Assembly: GCF_963506605.1 (NCBI RefSeq)
Contig: NC_083282.1
Span: 868,001-932,000 of the forward strand
DNA from: Zootoca vivipara
Lineage: Eukaryota
DNA: 64,000 bases
Direction: 5' to 3'
How positions within the stretch are numbered: position 1 is the first letter of the stretch; each line of letters opens with the position of its first letter. Below, one piece after another: positions 3,001 to 21,000 of the stretch. The position numbers are program-made.

Positions 3001-6000
3001 TGGTTGTTGCATAAGAGCATCCCTGCCGGGTCTGGCTCAGGTCTCTCCATTTCCCAAGAGCCGCCGCCTATTCTCTATTCTGGGAATTCGCGAGGCGGGC
3101 CGCCTGCTGCTTCTCGAGAGCGCCTGATATTCCGCGCTAAACTGCCTCTGAAGAGGGAGGCTCCATTGAGCGAGCGTGGCCAAGCTGAAGCGCGGAGACC
3201 CACCAAGCAGGAGCAACTCGGAGGCGCGCAGCTGTGCCGGGAAGGATGGCAGGCAAAGACGCCGCGCGCGATGGAGCGCCACGGGGACAGCGCACGCACA
3301 AGGACGGTGGTGGCGGCCGCTCTCCGGGTCCCCGGGGTGGGTGGCGGGGTGCCTGCGCTGGGGCCACCCAAGGCGTGGCAAGGGGCGCCAGTGCCGCTAA
3401 GCGCAAAACTCGCCAAGGCGGCGCCCGCGGGCTTCTTTTGCATTGCTTTGTCCCCGCCCGGGCATGGCCTCTGAGCATGGGCAGAGCGCCCGGGCGTGGC
3501 AGCGAGGGGAAGGCGAGGCGACCAGCATCTTCGCTCCGGCGGGCGCGTCTTAGGGAGGGACAGAAGGAAGGAAGGAAGGAAGGAAGGAAGGAGCCACTCA
3601 CCGAAGTAGACGGTCTTGTCGCACTTGGGACACTTGGATGCCATGGCGCGCGCTGGAGGCGGACGAGCGGCAGAGTGGAGCGTCTCCGGCGCCGGCGCCC
3701 GACCTCCCTCCCTCCCGCGCGCCCGCCTCCGCCCCCGCCCGGCGCCCATTGGCTGCGCGCTCCGCCCGGACCGAGAGGGGGCGGAGCCCGTGGCGCTGGC
3801 GGGCGGCGCGAGGAGCAGGCGCCCCCCCCCTCACACGCCAGACGCCGCCCGGGCAGCCGGGGGGACGGGCGGGGCGGGGCGGGGCGGGGCAGGGCGGCGG
3901 CTGCGGTGGGCGCTGCTTCCCACGGGGCGCGCCTCTCCCACGGGGCGCCTCACCCCATCGCCCACCATGGGCGGAGAAGGGGCTTCTTCCATGTGACAGC
4001 CCTCTAGTCTAGATAAATGAAAATGGTCATCCTATCTCCTCTTCAACTGTTCCTCACAAGGCTTGGTTTCCAGACCCTTGAACACCTTGGTTGCCCTTCT
4101 CTGCACACGTTCCAGCTTGTCAATCTCCTCCTTAAATTGTGGTGCCCAGAACTGGACACAGTATTTCAGGTGTGGTCTGACCAAGGCAGAATAGACTGGT
4201 ACTTTACTTCCCTTGATCTGGACACTCGACGTCTGTTGATGCAGTCTAGAAGAGCATTAGCTTTTTTTGCTGCTGCATGACATTGTCCACTCATGTTCAT
4301 CTTGTAGCCTAATAAGACCCCTAGATCCTTTTCACATGAACTACTGGCAGGCAAGGTGTCTCTCATCTTACACTGGTGGAGACCCTTCTTCCTGCCTAAG
4401 TGCAGAACCCTATAGCCTATCCCTATTGAACTTCATTTTGTTTGTTTGGGCCCAGTTTCCCAATCTGTTAAGGAGGTGGTTTTTAACCCGTGTGCCATGG
4501 CACCCTGGGGTGCCTTGAATGATGGTCAGGGGTGCCTTGGGCAACCCTGGCCTCTGTCCCTTTTTCTTTCTGTCCTTCCCTCCCTCCTCTGATGCCCTCT
4601 TGCGTCACGGCCTCGGAGTAAGCAAGCAAGTGGATGGGGGGCCAAGTCAGCCAGTCCACCAGCCCTTGGTGTTGGGAATGCACAGAAAGGGGGAGGGCAG
4701 GAAGGCAGGCAGGCAGGCAGGTGCAGCCCTGGACCTTTCTTCTGCTTGCTGTGTGCAGTGCCTGCCTGGGAGCTGAAGGGGAGCTGCTGCCTCCCAAGGC
4801 AAGTAAGGTGCTGGCCTGACATCCACCTTGGGCCAGTCAGGCCACTAAGGCTGGGGACATCCTCTTGTGGGGCGACGGAAGGAGGCACCTCTTGTGGGGG
4901 TGGGAGTGGCTCATAGACCAGATGACTCCCAACGAGAGGAGAGAGGAGGTTGGGGAAACACTCCGCAAGGGAAGGTGTTCCAAAAGGGGTGAGGGGCTGC
5001 CAGCTTTGCAGGCAAGGGGTGAAATGGGCTTCTGAGGCTCAGAGTGTGATTCCCTACAGGGGAGCCGCAGAGAGGATGTAGCTGGTCAAGGGAGCCATGG
5101 ACTCAAAAAGGCTGAAAACCTCTATGTTAAGGGGATCTTGAATCCCAATTCTGTCTTCTGCAGCATTAGCTATCCCTCCCCCTTTGGTGTCATCTGCAAA
5201 TTCCCCGTTCAAGTCACTTATAAAGATGTTGAACAACAACGGGCCCAGGACAGAACCCTGTGGCACCCACTTGTCACTTTTTTCCAGGATGATGAGGAAC
5301 TTTTTATGAGAGATTTACTACAAGCGAAGACTGCTAAAAAATCTCTGTGCCCACACGCTTCCTCAGTGCAAGCCTAGCAGAGTGGAAGCCGTTGGAAGAC
5401 TATTAATGTGGTTCAATCAGTTGATCAGCTACAAATCCACCTAGCAGTCACCTTATCCAACTCACATTTTACTAGCATGTCTGCAAGTATATCATGGGTG
5501 ACTTTTTCAGACGTGTTACTGAAATCAGTAGGTACCAATTCCACTGCTCTCTCCTCATCCACCAAGCTTGTAGTTCTATAAAATAAAAAAGAGGTTTGTC
5601 TGGCTTGACTTGTTTTTGAGAAACCCTTTCTGGGTCTTAGTAATCACAGCATCCTTTTGTAAGTGCTCACAGACTGACTGTTGAATTATCTGTTCTAGGA
5701 CCTTCCCTGGTATCAATGTCAATGGTTGGTAATAATAATAATAATAATAATAATATTTATACCCCACCCATCTGGCTGGATTTCCCCAGGCACTCTGGGC
5801 AGCTTCCAACAAAATATTAAAATACAATAGTCTGTCAAACATTGAAAGCTTCCCTAAACAGGGCTGCTTTCAGATATCTTCTAAAAGTCTGGTAGTTGTT
5901 TTTCTCTTTGACATCTGATGGGAGGGCATTCCACAGGGCGGGCGCCACTACCGAGAAGGCCCTCTGCCTGGTTCCCTGTAGCTTTGCTTCTCACAGTGAG

Positions 6001-18000: not shown

Positions 18001-21000
18001 AAATAATAAAGTTAAAAACAAAAGAATTACAAATGTTTTTTCCTTTATAAAAATATTTATAAATACTGCCTCCCTTGTGAAAGAGATCTATAGGCCTGCT
18101 ATAAAGGCAATTGCTCAATGTTCCTTTTCTCCCTTCCAGATTCTGTTCTTTCCTCCACACTCACATGTCAGGCATCCTCAAACTGCGGCCCTCCAGATGT
18201 TTTGGCCTACAACTCCCATGATCCCTAGCTAACAGGACCAGTGGTCAGGGATGATGGGAATTGTAGGCCAAAACATCTGGAGGGCCAAAGTTTGGGGATG
18301 CCTGCTCTAGGTTTTGCATAAGCCTTCCTGGCATGCACCAACACACACTCAGTTTCCCAAGCTTGTTTTTTGGGCATGAAGAACATTGAACCTTACTATT
18401 TGGGTGCCAGTCCACAATTATTATTTTAAAGTTTGCCTTGTGTATTTTTTTTAATAGAAAGTATTCCCGCTCTGGCGGGAAGGCAAACGGTGTTTCTGTG
18501 CGCTGCTTTGGTTTCGCCAGAAGCGGCTTAGTCATGCTGGCCACGTGGGCTCCCTCAGCCAGTAAAGAGAGATGAGTGCCGCAACCCGAGAGTCGTTCAC
18601 GAGTGGACTTAACTGTCAGGGGTCCTTTACCTTTACACTATTTTTTTAAAAAAAATGGAATATTGTTCACAGTCAGTAGATCTCCCTTTTTCACTCTCTA
18701 CTCCCTCCCGACGACTGCCGTTCACTAGTCTTTGTTTTAACACTTTTCTCTTCTGGCCACATCAAAAACACAAGGGCTTGTATATAAAATATGCAATTCT
18801 CCAATAACTTAACTGAAAACACATCCAGAGTATACAAATGCCTTATTTTCACTGTGATGCATACGGATGTTGTCTATTGGATCCCCCCCCCTTCAACGTT
18901 GCATTTCAAGGGAAACAGTCATTGTTCCCTTTGTATTAATACAAACATGGGGGTTGGGCATGAGACTCTACAAGGATTCCACTTAAAACTGCCGATTGTG
19001 ATTTTAACATGTTTAAACAGTAGGAATCTGTAGCCCTCCAGATGTGGTGAGTCTACAACTTCCATCCCCCCTGACCATTGGCCGATTGTTCCCCTGGGCC
19101 TGGCCTAAATGGTTTGAATGAGGAGGTCAATAGCATCACCCACTCCTGTCTGCCGGTTGGGAGAAATAGGGGGGGGGGGTTCAGCATGCTTTCCCCTAAT
19201 ATTTAAGTAGCTTCTTAGTAAGGCCCAGCCTAACATCCTCCTTCCCAAGGCGAAGGACAAGATTTTATTTATTTATTAAATTTATATACTGCCCTTCATC
19301 CAAAGACCACGGGGCAGTTTACAATACAGCATAATGGTGCAGTTCAGAGTACAGTACCTAAGTTGTATTACCATTCAAAGTACAAAAAGCCGGTTGGATG
19401 GGCAGCTGAATCTTACTCCCAGCAAGGATGATGGACAAGCATTCTGCCCTGATCTTGCCTGCAGTGGCCTGTCTTAGGAAGTGCGGGACTGCCGGGCACA
19501 ACACCTCCCTGACACTCACCAGCAGTGGCATCCTGTGGCCTTAGGTCAGGGTGGGCCATCACACGGCCCTTGAGGCATTTTTTGTGGCCCTCTGCAACAT
19601 TTGGGCATGCATGAAAACCAACAGTGAAGGCACTTGCTCGGTCTCCCTCCTCCCTCCTGCTTGTGGCCTCTAACCTCACCCGTGAGCCATGGGGCTGCCT
19701 TTCGCAGTCACCCTAGCAAACTTGCAGCATGCTATTCCGGGGGGCTTGCAGCAGCATCCATGGGTACAGGCAGGGGACAGCTGATCCCCTAAAACAAATA
19801 CAGTGGTACCTCTACTTACGAATAACTCTACTTACGAATGTTTCTATTTACGAACGGAGCTCCGTCCGCCATCTTGGATGCGGTTTAGATAGGGTTGCTT
19901 CGACTTACAATTTTTTTCGACTTACGAATGTGCATTCGGAACACATTAAATTCGTAAGTAGAGGTACCACTGTAAATAAAAATACTTAAAGGTAGAAATA
20001 ATCAGAATATTTGGAATTGAAATGCTCGCTGAGGTCAAAAGCAATTTAAAACAACTGTTGAGGCATTTCATTCCAAATCTGCTAGACTGAGTCAGACAGA
20101 GGGTGACGACAGGTGGATATCCTGTCCCCGCAACATAAATCCTGGTGATGCTCAGGGCAGCCTCCCTCCCCACCTGCTTTGCACTCGCTCTGCCAAGCTT
20201 TGGAACGTTTTGTTCTTTTGGAGGTTTCCTTTTATTATTTTGGGCATTGCATAATTTGAGCACACGGGAAAAGCAGGATGTCTTGCGGGGAAAGGCAAGA
20301 GCAACCACAGGACCAGGATTACGCAGCAGCCGGTGGTGAGATTCAAGCTCCCAACTTCAGCACCAGTTGGTGCTCTGGGGCAGCCAGAGCAGCAGCACTG
20401 AGTCCCGGGGCTGGTGTGTGTGTGTGCTTCTCTTGTTGAGGGGGAAGGAGAAAGAGGCAATCTTGAAGGGACAACAGCTCTAGAAGTGATTTTATTACAA
20501 GGATCTGGAAAAAGTATTATAGCTTTGCTTTCGTGGGGGGGGGGGGAGGAAGCTCAAATAAGTGACAAAAAATAATGTATTTTAAAACCATTTACATCAA
20601 AAAGTTCAGTGTTCAGATTTCTTTTGTAATACAAAAATCTCATACAGCATTGTTTTGCCATCCCTCCAAATCCTCTTTGCTCCAGGTGTTGTTTCCCCCA
20701 AACACTATTTCAGTAAGTTCATCAATGATTGTTGTTCCGCCTAAAGTTCTTCTTTTGTCCTACTTAGTTTGGTGGCATATTCTTCTACAAATTTGCTCAA
20801 GCTTTCCAGATCTCTTTCTCCACCTTCAAATTTAATAGGATCCTTTTTCTTATTGCTAGGAGCAAAATAGATGGTAGGGAATCCTTCCACTTTGTAATTT
20901 TCACTGGTGACATCATTGGCAGTAGCATCCATTTTGGCAATGACCAGGTTTTTCTGAGTTTTGTATTTTTTACCCAGCTCCGTATAAATGGGCTCAAGCT

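What the first reader, a model, noticed from the sequence alone, without database searches (positions are those of the whole stretch)
3602..18733. Y RNA cluster looks split: Y3 and a Y1 relic stay with PDIA4, but CRIP2 stands where Y4/Y5/EZH2 are expected
Seen: an intact Y3 (+) and a Y1-like relic just 3' of PDIA4 (-). By eye, no Y4 or Y5 sequence lies in the 11 kb up to CRIP2. Known: in human the order is EZH2-RNY5-RNY4-RNY3-RNY1-PDIA4 on 7q36, and the tetrapod Y cluster is usually described as a single locus. Inference: a rearrangement breakpoint cut through the cluster or Y4/Y5 were lost, so this lineage may have a reduced or dispersed Ro RNP RNA set.
Basis: partly seen in the sequence, partly recalled or inferred. 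Interest (0 to 1): 0.75.

Follow-up and report, generated by a model that had tools for sequence, protein, structure and literature searches.

The report
Lizard Y RNA cluster, trimmed and relocated
Next to PDIA4 this lizard keeps one working Y RNA gene (Y3) and a dead scrap of Y1, but the usual neighbours on the far side (Y4 and EZH2) are replaced by transposon-rich DNA and the CRIP2 promoter, an ordinary lineage-specific reshuffle of a known gene cluster.

Summary
Rfam finds one full-length Y RNA gene at 15131-15232 (+). It has a PSE/TATA promoter, a T-run terminator and a stable stem fold. A 75-nt collinear fragment of a second Y gene lies at 18659-18733 (+), just 3' of PDIA4 (-). It lacks the 5' stem strand, abuts a SINE and is invisible to the covariance model, so it is dead. 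No other Y RNA, Y motif or PSE-TATA pair occurs in the 64 kb. CRIP2 is represented only by exon 1 (3644-3602, -). That exon is 14/14 identical to the solved CRIP2 LIM domain.

The published sauropsid order is EZH2>Y4<Y3<Y1<PDIA4 with no Y5, so Y5 is not missing here. Y1 decay has a precedent in chicken. What is derived is the loss of the Y4/EZH2 flank. The other flank of PDIA4 is also foreign: tRNA-Ala, SCARNA13 and GLRX5. A 22-44 kb PDIA4-Y1 relic-Y3 block therefore sits among unrelated genes.

Whether Y4 survives elsewhere or is lost cannot be told, because no vertebrate genome could be searched. Y genes carry their own promoters, so no functional effect is expected. Interest is modest.

The parts
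3602..3644 (-). CRIP2 exon 1 coding part (14 codons plus 1 base; donor GT at 3601/3600). The rest of the gene lies beyond the left edge of the window.
   Evidence: Sequence read. In-frame phmmer against PDB gives best hit 2cu8_A Cysteine-rich protein 2, E 2.8e-07, 14/14 identical.
3001..4100 (.). CpG island over the CRIP2 promoter and exon 1
   Evidence: GC 0.69, CpG observed/expected 0.87. GC is 0.715 for 3001-4000.
3645..14263 (.). Spacer between CRIP2 and the unique DNA upstream of Y3. It is largely transposon debris and must contain the left breakpoint.
   Evidence: Reverse-transcriptase fragment at 13196-13876 (Pfam RVT_1, E 7.4e-17). Other LINE-like and hAT-like ORFs were read by eye (4032-4432, 5054-5314, 5835-6128, 7982-8813). 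2122 of 11420 bases recur elsewhere in the window. No Y_RNA at E<=10.
14201..14900 (.). Orphan CpG island directly upstream of Y3; it overlaps the distal promoter boxes
   Evidence: GC 0.60, CpG observed/expected 0.81. The ORFs across it have no Pfam family (protein 9).
14883..15106 (+). Y3 promoter of Pol III type 3 layout: octamer-like box 14883-14889 (-248), CCCATAATGC 14898-14907 (-233), PSE-like box 15065-15075 (-66), TATAAATA 15099-15106 (-32)
   Evidence: The PSE..TATA pattern is found once in the 64 kb, against 0.09 expected. The consensus motifs used are recalled.
15131..15232 (+). Intact Y RNA gene of Y3 type, about 99-102 nt, ending in a T4 terminator
   Evidence: RF00019 at 80.1 bits, full model. 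Fold z -3.9. The length fits hY3 at 101 nt, versus 112, 93 and 83 nt for Y1, Y4 and Y5 (PMC11825425).
18168..18308 (.). Hairpin MITE (resembles mir-5408) inserted upstream of the relic
   Evidence: Copies at 49851-49991, 43773-43912 and 45901-46031 at 92-94% identity in one orientation and 80-85% in the other (the element is palindromic), plus fragments at 57639-57740. RF04264 scores 56 bits, below its gathering score of 90.
18467..18636 (+). Old SINE, followed by an A/T run to about 18656, abutting the 5' edge of the relic
   Evidence: About 75% identical copies at 49446-49633, 59993-60171 and 33941-34024.
18659..18733 (+). Y1-position relic: the 3' three-quarters of a Y RNA gene, with the 5' stem strand gone and 5 nt deleted from the 3' stem strand
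   Evidence: nhmmer E 0.17. Best non-self Smith-Waterman tile in the window, 58 against 45. No Y_RNA match by covariance model. No fold signal. The 5' part is not detectable upstream of the SINE.
20744..36690 (-). PDIA4 coding region: candidate exon 1 with a signal peptide (ATG at 36690), then nine collinear exon blocks from 33563 down to the stop at 20744-20746
   Evidence: CGHC x3 and KEEL. Pfam Thioredoxin on three exons. PDB 2dj3_A PDIA4, E 1.4e-66. Named PDIA4 proteins of lizards at up to 96% identity. tblastn exon map. Exon 1.
38027..38098 (+). tRNA-Ala(CGC), first feature beyond the PDIA4 promoter
   Evidence: Rfam 64.8 bits; ARAGORN.
47666..47939 (-). SCARNA13, part of the foreign right-hand flank
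   Evidence: RF00231 at 208.1 bits, full model.
50800..53272 (+). GLRX5 (exon 1 around 50800-50997, exon 2 at 53060-53272), head to head with the SCARNA13 side
   Evidence: Pfam Glutaredoxin on both exons. PDB 2wul_A GLRX5, E 4.5e-22.

Best explanation
The window shows the PDIA4-proximal end of the tetrapod Y RNA cluster in a lacertid-like lizard, after lineage-specific decay and rearrangement.

Y3 is a working, self-contained Pol III type 3 gene with distal boxes, PSE, TATA and a T-run. Its roughly 100-nt RNA can form the terminal stem that binds Ro60, and it carries the 3' U tail for La. The RNA structure and the promoter layout are shown here. Protein binding is inferred from the family.

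The next gene towards PDIA4, in the Y1 slot, has been destroyed. A SINE and its A/T tail sit exactly where the 5' third should be, and the 3' stem strand has a 5-nt deletion, so no Ro60-binding stem can form.

Y5 was never there, as in other sauropsids. On the other side of Y3 the ancestral continuation (Y4, then EZH2) has been replaced by transposon-rich DNA and the CRIP2 promoter. Beyond the PDIA4 promoter lie tRNA-Ala, SCARNA13 and GLRX5. A block of 22-44 kb (PDIA4, Y1 relic, Y3) has therefore been separated from the EZH2 side by chromosomal rearrangement. One breakpoint lies in 3.6-14.3 kb and another in about 37.5-47.6 kb.

My inferred guess is that Y4 stayed with EZH2 elsewhere in the genome, so the functional Y genes are now at two loci. 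Each Y gene has its own promoter, so the split should be functionally neutral.
For: - One full-length Y_RNA with promoter, terminator and stable fold.
- A relic collinear with Y3, in the same orientation, between Y3 and the 3' end of PDIA4. This matches the published sauropsid order and antisense orientation Y3<Y1<PDIA4 (PMC2935454).
- A SINE and a MITE with other copies in the window abut the relic.
- No further Y RNA, Y stem motif or PSE-TATA pair in the 64 kb.
- CRIP2 exon 1 with a CpG island.
- PDIA4 is a complete, intron-bearing gene, closest to Podarcis PDIA4 at 96% identity over the last exon.
- SCARNA13 and GLRX5 lie on the other flank.
- The sequence is continuous, with no N.
- Y genes are transcribed from individual promoters, and species carry one to four of them (PMC4726728).
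Against: - Nothing in the window shows where Y4 or EZH2 are. 'Split' and 'Y4 lost' fit the data equally well.
- The relic has weak statistics (E 0.17), is not recognised by the Rfam model, and is assigned to Y1 from position and recall only.
- A covariance model that misses this relic could also miss a similarly decayed Y4 relic in the spacer.
- CRIP2 rests on 14 residues.
- That CRIP2, SCARNA13 and GLRX5 are 14q32 genes in human, and not 7q36 genes, is recalled map knowledge and was not tested here.
- Assembly correctness across the transposon-rich spacer cannot be checked without reads.
Confidence: 0.55

Rival explanations
1. The cluster is reduced, not split. Y4 was deleted or decayed beyond recognition in this lineage, and Y1 died too. 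Y3 would then be the only functional Y RNA gene, and the change of neighbour is a separate rearrangement.
For: No Y4 in the 64 kb by covariance model, motifs or promoter pattern. The spacer is heavily reworked by transposons. Loss of individual Y genes is common: chicken Y1, rodent Y4/Y5 fossils, and one to four genes per species.
Against: The amniotes for which I read passages keep at least two Y RNAs: chicken has two on northern blots (PMC2770669), turkey has Y1, Y3 and Y4, and rodents have Y1 and Y3. I recall, unverified because the paper is not held, that an iguana expresses Y3 and Y4. Absence from a 64-kb window says nothing about the rest of the genome.
Confidence: 0.3
2. Assembly artefact: the CRIP2 end was joined to the Y3-PDIA4 contig by a false overlap inside repeats, and the real genome continues to Y4 and EZH2.
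For: The spacer contains several repeat families that recur in the window. Such repeats are where false joins arise. No read-level evidence was available.
Against: There is no gap. The opposite flank of PDIA4 is also non-canonical, so two independent false joins would be needed. The repeats in the spacer are diverged fragments, about 75-94% identical to their other copies, rather than long identical copies.
Confidence: 0.08
3. CRIP2-Y3-PDIA4-GLRX5 is the ancestral amniote or sauropsid arrangement, and the EZH2 flank is derived elsewhere.
Against: PMC2935454 states that the cluster lies between EZH2 and PDIA4 in turkey 'as in other tetrapods' and that EZH2>Y4<Y3<Y1<PDIA4 is conserved among sauropsids. 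The human order RNY5-RNY4-RNY3-RNY1 on 7q36 is confirmed in PMC11825425.
Confidence: 0.03

Closest known systems
Sauropsid Y RNA cluster EZH2>Y4<Y3<Y1<PDIA4 (turkey genome paper, PMC2935454)
   Same: Y3, then the Y1 slot, then PDIA4. Both Y units point the same way and are antisense to PDIA4. There is no Y5.
   Different: Y1 is only a 75-nt fossil. Y4 and EZH2 are absent from the window and replaced by transposon-rich DNA and CRIP2. The PDIA4 5' flank carries tRNA-Ala, SCARNA13 and GLRX5.
Chicken Y cluster with Y1 lost (PMC2935454; two Y RNAs on northern blots in PMC2770669)
   Same: Independent loss of Y1 in a sauropsid while Y3 is kept.
   Different: Chicken is described as keeping the EZH2-PDIA4 frame and Y4. 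Here the frame is broken on the Y4 side.
Rodent 'fossil' Y4/Y5 genes at conserved syntenic positions (PMC4702372)
   Same: A dead Y gene remnant is left in its ancestral slot beside functional paralogues.
   Different: A different paralogue is affected (Y1 instead of Y4/Y5). Here the death is associated with a SINE insertion at the 5' edge.
Human 7q36 cluster RNY5-RNY4-RNY3-RNY1 beside PDIA4 (PMC4726728, PMC11825425)
   Same: Y3 and Y1 are the two units nearest PDIA4. Each gene has its own Pol III promoter.
   Different: Human has four genes, with RNY1 in the opposite direction to the others. Here there is one live gene and the two units are co-oriented.

Membership tests
Y RNA (Rfam RF00019), unit at 15131-15232 | Covariance-model score above the curated gathering score, over the full model length | tested here: met
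   80.1 bits against 38, model 1-96 of 96.
Y RNA (Rfam RF00019), unit at 15131-15232 | Terminal stem formed by the 5' and 3' ends (Ro60-binding helix) and a stable fold | tested here: met
   Paired ends in the Rfam alignment and in the minimum-free-energy fold; z -3.9, 0 of 200 shuffles fold as well.
Y RNA (Rfam RF00019), unit at 15131-15232 | Pol III type 3 promoter (TATA near -30, PSE near -55 to -65, distal element) and a T-run terminator | tested here: met
   Boxes at -32, -66 and -248/-233, and T4 at 15229-15232. It is the only PSE..TATA pair in the window. The consensus motifs are recalled.
Y RNA (Rfam RF00019), unit at 15131-15232 | Binding to Ro60 and La; expression | not testable with these tools
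   Needs RNA-seq or immunoprecipitation.
Y3 subclass | Loop sequence of Y3 type | not tested
   No reference Y3 sequence could be brought into a tool. From recall only, the loop is close to mammalian Y3.
Y3 subclass | Length near 101 nt and second position from PDIA4 | tested here: met
   99-102 nt, against 101 nt for hY3.
Y RNA, relic at 18659-18733 | Recognised by the RF00019 model | tested here: not met
   No Y_RNA match at E<=10 in 18250-18850 or in 1-26000.
Y RNA, relic at 18659-18733 | Sequence descent from a Y gene | tested here: inconclusive
   nhmmer E 0.17. It is the top non-self Smith-Waterman tile, 58 against 45, and is collinear. Its position and strand fit the Y1 slot.
Y RNA, relic at 18659-18733 | 5' strand of the terminal stem present | tested here: not met
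   The alignment starts at Y3 position 28. No 5' part lies upstream of the SINE: score 14, and 67% of 2130 tiles score as well.
Canonical tetrapod Y cluster frame (EZH2 ... PDIA4) | PDIA4 adjacent to the Y1 end, with Y genes antisense to it | tested here: met
Canonical tetrapod Y cluster frame (EZH2 ... PDIA4) | Y4 and then EZH2 beyond Y3 | tested here: not met
   No Y4 was found. CRIP2 exon 1 lies at 3602-3644.
CRIP2 | N-terminal LIM start identical to CRIP2 and better than to CRIP1 | tested here: met
   2cu8_A E 2.8e-07, 14/14 identical, against 1iml_A E 1.5e-04.
CRIP2 | Two complete LIM domains | not testable with these tools
   Exons 2 onward lie outside the window. No LIM motif was found in 1-3600.
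PDIA4 (ERp72) | Three CGHC thioredoxin domains, an ER retention tail, and best match to PDIA4 rather than other PDIs | tested here: met

The most novel reading that the evidence does not exclude
This lizard lineage runs on a single Y RNA. Y1 is dead in place and Y4 is gone from the genome, not merely relocated. Y3 alone would then supply both the Ro60 partner and the DNA-replication function.
Probability: 0.2. Interest if true: 0.55.

Novelty: new variant of a known kind. Interest (0 to 1): 0.3.

Why it matters
Reviews describe the Y RNA genes as one cluster kept between EZH2 and PDIA4 throughout tetrapods. A lizard in which the PDIA4-side genes have left that frame would be a natural test of whether clustering matters. 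Each gene has its own Pol III promoter, so the expected answer is that it does not.

The window also adds an independent case of Y1 loss in a sauropsid, with the fossil and the likely cause (a SINE at its 5' edge) still visible. If Y4 proved to be absent genome-wide, the minimal Y RNA set compatible with amniote life would shrink to Y3. Otherwise this is routine synteny turnover in a repeat-rich squamate genome.

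Tried and rejected
- Rfam at relaxed thresholds was run on four sub-ranges to find Y4, Y5 or the relic. Nothing appeared beyond Y3.
- Stem motifs with up to 3 mismatches gave hits at or below chance, apart from Y3.
- A search for the missing 5' part of the relic upstream of the SINE gave a background-level score. I read a possible target-site duplication around the SINE by eye (printout), but it is too degenerate to claim.
- A first PDB search with CRIP2 exon 1 was out of frame through my own slip and found nothing. The in-frame repeat is.
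- Pfam found nothing in the hAT-like ORF 8319-8813, in the ORF across the CpG island (14264-15064) or in 12665-13198.
- Six look-ups for primary Y RNA evolution papers returned 'not held': Mosig 2007, Perreault 2007, Farris 1999, O'Brien 1993, Teunissen 2000. They are used only as cited by others or as recall.
- Searches for print on lizard or squamate Y RNA clusters, or on PDIA4/CRIP2/GLRX5 synteny, found nothing relevant.
- The genome-contig collection holds only bacteria and archaea, so I did not use it.
- I considered and rejected the ancestral-arrangement reading. I also rejected the idea that PDIA4 here is a retrocopy, because it has at least nine introns.

Full report
WHAT IS THERE

The window is continuous sequence without any N. 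An Rfam scan at gathering thresholds finds four RNAs:
- a Y RNA at 15131-15232 (+), 80.1 bits against a gathering score of 38, full model;
- SCARNA13 at 47666-47939 (-), 208 bits;
- a tRNA at 38027-38098 (+), which ARAGORN calls tRNA-Ala(CGC);
- a weak tRNA-like piece at 24265-24321 (-).

The protein-coding landmarks were searched exon by exon. I built no spliced or joined protein model, so that step is left out.
- PDIA4 lies on the minus strand. It has three CGHC exons and a KEEL tail, and Pfam Thioredoxin matches three separate exons. The last exon best matches the solved PDIA4 domain 2dj3_A at E 1.4e-66. It also matches named PDIA4 proteins: 96% identity to Podarcis muralis and P. lilfordi, 91% to Sceloporus, Anolis and Varanus, and 90% to Python.
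- A tblastn of the Podarcis protein maps nine collinear exon blocks from 33563 down to the stop at 20744. A signal-peptide exon starts at 36690. PDIA4 here is therefore a complete, intron-bearing gene, and the animal is a lizard closest to lacertids.
- CRIP2 is present only as exon 1: ATG at 3644 and splice donor at 3601/3600, on the minus strand, inside a CpG island at 3001-4100. In frame, it matches the solved 'Cysteine-rich protein 2' domain 2cu8_A at E 2.8e-07 with 14 of 14 residues identical, ahead of CRIP1 at E 1.5e-04. An earlier attempt was out of frame through my error.
- Beyond the PDIA4 promoter lie the tRNA-Ala, then SCARNA13, then GLRX5 on the plus strand. GLRX5 has Pfam Glutaredoxin on two exons and matches PDB 2wul_A at E 4.5e-22.
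- A Sulfotransfer_2 exon lies at 60636-61103 (-).

THE Y3 GENE

The Rfam alignment pairs the two ends of the RNA into the terminal stem and keeps the inner stem. ViennaRNA gives -27.9 kcal/mol, z -3.9, with none of 200 shuffles folding as well.

Upstream lie TATAAATA at -32, a PSE-like box at -66, and octamer-like and CCCATAATGC boxes at -248 and -233. The gene ends in TTTT. A generic PSE..TATA pattern occurs once in the 64 kb, at this gene, against 0.09 expected.

The length of 99-102 nt fits Y3. PMC11825425 gives 101 nt for human Y3, against 112, 93 and 83 nt for Y1, Y4 and Y5 (passages). From recall only, the loop sequence is also of Y3 type. I could not bring a reference Y3 sequence into a tool. 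I conclude that this is an intact Y3 gene. Expression and Ro60/La binding are inferred, not shown.

THE RELIC

nhmmer with the window's Y3 finds 18657-18732 (+) at E 0.17. A Smith-Waterman alignment places 18659-18733 collinear with Y3 positions 28-101, with a score of 58. That is the best of all 420-nt tiles on both strands other than Y3 itself; the next best scores 45.

The relic keeps the loop-proximal block ATTGTTCACAGTCAGT, a pyrimidine-rich block, ACTGC, and TTCACT..AGTCTTT. It lacks 5 nt of the 3' stem strand and the whole 5' stem strand.

Rfam does not recognise it, even in a 601-nt search at E<=10. Its fold is indistinguishable from shuffles (z -0.26, with 74 of 200 as good).

Directly 5' of it sit an A/T run and a SINE (18467-18636) with about 75% identical copies at three other places in the window. 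A little further upstream is a hairpin MITE (18168-18308) with four other copies. The missing 5' part is not detectable upstream of the SINE: the score is 14, and 67% of 2130 tiles score as well.

So this is a dead 3' fragment of a Y gene. It lies between Y3 and the 3' end of PDIA4, on the same strand as Y3, which is exactly the Y1 slot of the sauropsid cluster (see below). That position, plus my recall of Y1 sequence, is the basis for calling it Y1-like. The statistical support on sequence alone is weak.

WHAT IS NOT THERE

- Rfam at E<=10 over 3400-15300 returns 10 matches, and only Y3 is a Y_RNA.
- Over 1-26000 it returns 65 matches, again with only Y3.
- Over 26001-64000 at E<=1 it returns 13 matches and no Y_RNA.
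- The 5' stem motif with up to 2 mismatches gives 8 hits against 11.7 expected. The 3' stem motif with up to 3 mismatches gives 11 hits against 18.3 expected. Only the Y3 hits are exact.
- Two longer degenerate stem patterns hit Y3 alone convincingly.

One caveat applies. Because the model misses the Y1 relic, an equally decayed Y4 relic could hide in the spacer.

The spacer from 3645 to about 14263 is largely transposon debris:
- a reverse-transcriptase fragment at 13196-13876 (Pfam RVT_1, E 7.4e-17);
- further LINE-like and hAT-like ORFs, read by eye;
- 2122 of 11420 bases recurring elsewhere in the window.

Only about 870 bp upstream of Y3 are unique. They include an orphan CpG island at 14201-14900.

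COMPARISON WITH WHAT IS KNOWN

- The turkey genome paper (PMC2935454, section 20 read whole) states that the cluster lies antisense between EZH2 and PDIA4 'as in other tetrapods'. It also states that EZH2>Y4<Y3<Y1<PDIA4 is conserved among sauropsids, that no Y5 was found, and that chicken has lost Y1.
- Chicken shows two Y RNAs on northern blots (PMC2770669, passages).
- Reviews give one to four Y genes per species, each with its own Pol III promoter (PMC4726728, passages). They describe fossil Y4/Y5 genes left at syntenic positions in rodents (PMC4702372, passages).
- The human order is RNY5-RNY4-RNY3-RNY1, with RNY1 inverted (PMC11825425, passages).
- PMC5745555 (passages) repeats the single-cluster description.

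Against this background three points follow.
- The co-orientation of Y3 and the relic, antisense to PDIA4, is the sauropsid pattern.
- The absence of Y5 is ancestral.
- The decay of Y1 is a second, independent sauropsid case.

What is new is that the Y4/EZH2 continuation is missing and that the other flank of PDIA4 is also foreign. From recalled human map positions (not tested here), CRIP2, SCARNA13 and GLRX5 are 14q32 genes, whereas the Y cluster is at 7q36. A block of at least 22 kb (about 14.9-37.2 kb) and at most 44 kb (3.6-47.6 kb) thus sits among genes of another ancestral neighbourhood.

MECHANISM AND RIVALS

I favour a true evolutionary rearrangement, with breakpoints in 3.6-14.3 kb and 37.5-47.6 kb, that separated Y3 and the Y1 fossil from the EZH2 side. 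Y4 probably remained there (confidence 0.55 for the whole statement). Each Y gene is an autonomous Pol III unit, so no functional consequence is expected.

The main rival is that Y4 is lost altogether, leaving a Y3-only lizard (0.3). The window cannot distinguish the two.

Misassembly (0.08) would need two false joins and is not suggested by the diverged repeats, but read evidence is lacking. An ancestral CRIP2-Y3 adjacency (0.03) contradicts the cited passages.

LIMITS

- The primary papers on Y RNA evolution were not held, and supplements were closed.
- My searches found no printed description of a lizard Y cluster or of PDIA4/CRIP2/GLRX5 linkage. This covers only the open-access library.

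VERDICT

This is a derived, trimmed and relocated version of a well-known ncRNA cluster. It is of modest interest unless Y4 proves to be absent from the genome.

Noticed in passing
47666-47939 (-) and 50566-53272 (+): A full-length SCARNA13 (208 bits) lies head to head with GLRX5. From recall, the same pairing (SNHG10/SCARNA13 with GLRX5) exists in human, so this small unit seems conserved while its neighbours changed.
   Followed up: partly
38027-38098 (+): A single tRNA-Ala(CGC) gene lies about 1.3 kb beyond the PDIA4 start codon, between PDIA4 and the SCARNA13 side.
   Followed up: partly
14201-14900: An orphan CpG island (GC 0.60, observed/expected 0.81) lies immediately upstream of Y3, in the only unique DNA of the spacer. 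Long ORFs on both strands have no Pfam match. It could be a promoter of an unannotated transcript or part of the Y3 distal enhancer.
   Followed up: partly
18168-18308, 43773-43912, 45901-46031, 49851-49991, 57639-57740: A young palindromic MITE family (92-94% between copies in one orientation, 80-85% in the other) gives sub-threshold hits to the mir-5408 Rfam model on both strands. These are repeats, not miRNA genes.
   Followed up: partly
21728-22579: A GC-rich stretch inside a PDIA4 intron produces dozens of weak hairpin matches to unrelated miRNA families on both strands. It is probably nested palindromic repeats.
   Followed up: no
60636-61103 (-), with a CpG island at about 61-62 kb: An exon of a Sulfotransfer_2 (carbohydrate sulfotransferase-like) gene lies next to GLRX5. 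From recall, no such gene is a neighbour of GLRX5 in human, which is another sign of reshuffled synteny.
   Followed up: no
57705-59290 (+): A long open reverse-transcriptase ORF (367 aa without a stop). It looks like a RTE/BovB-type LINE by eye and is possibly recent.
   Followed up: no
7982-8813 (+): ORFs resembling the C-terminal part of a hAT transposase by eye. Pfam gave no match for 8319-8813.
   Followed up: partly
63543-63975: A GC-rich tandem repeat with a 196-bp unit, 2.2 copies and 94% matches, running to the right edge of the window.
   Followed up: no
24265-24321 (-): A tRNA-like match just above the Rfam threshold (31.5 bits, partial model). It is most likely the head of a tRNA-derived SINE inside a PDIA4 intron.
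   Followed up: no
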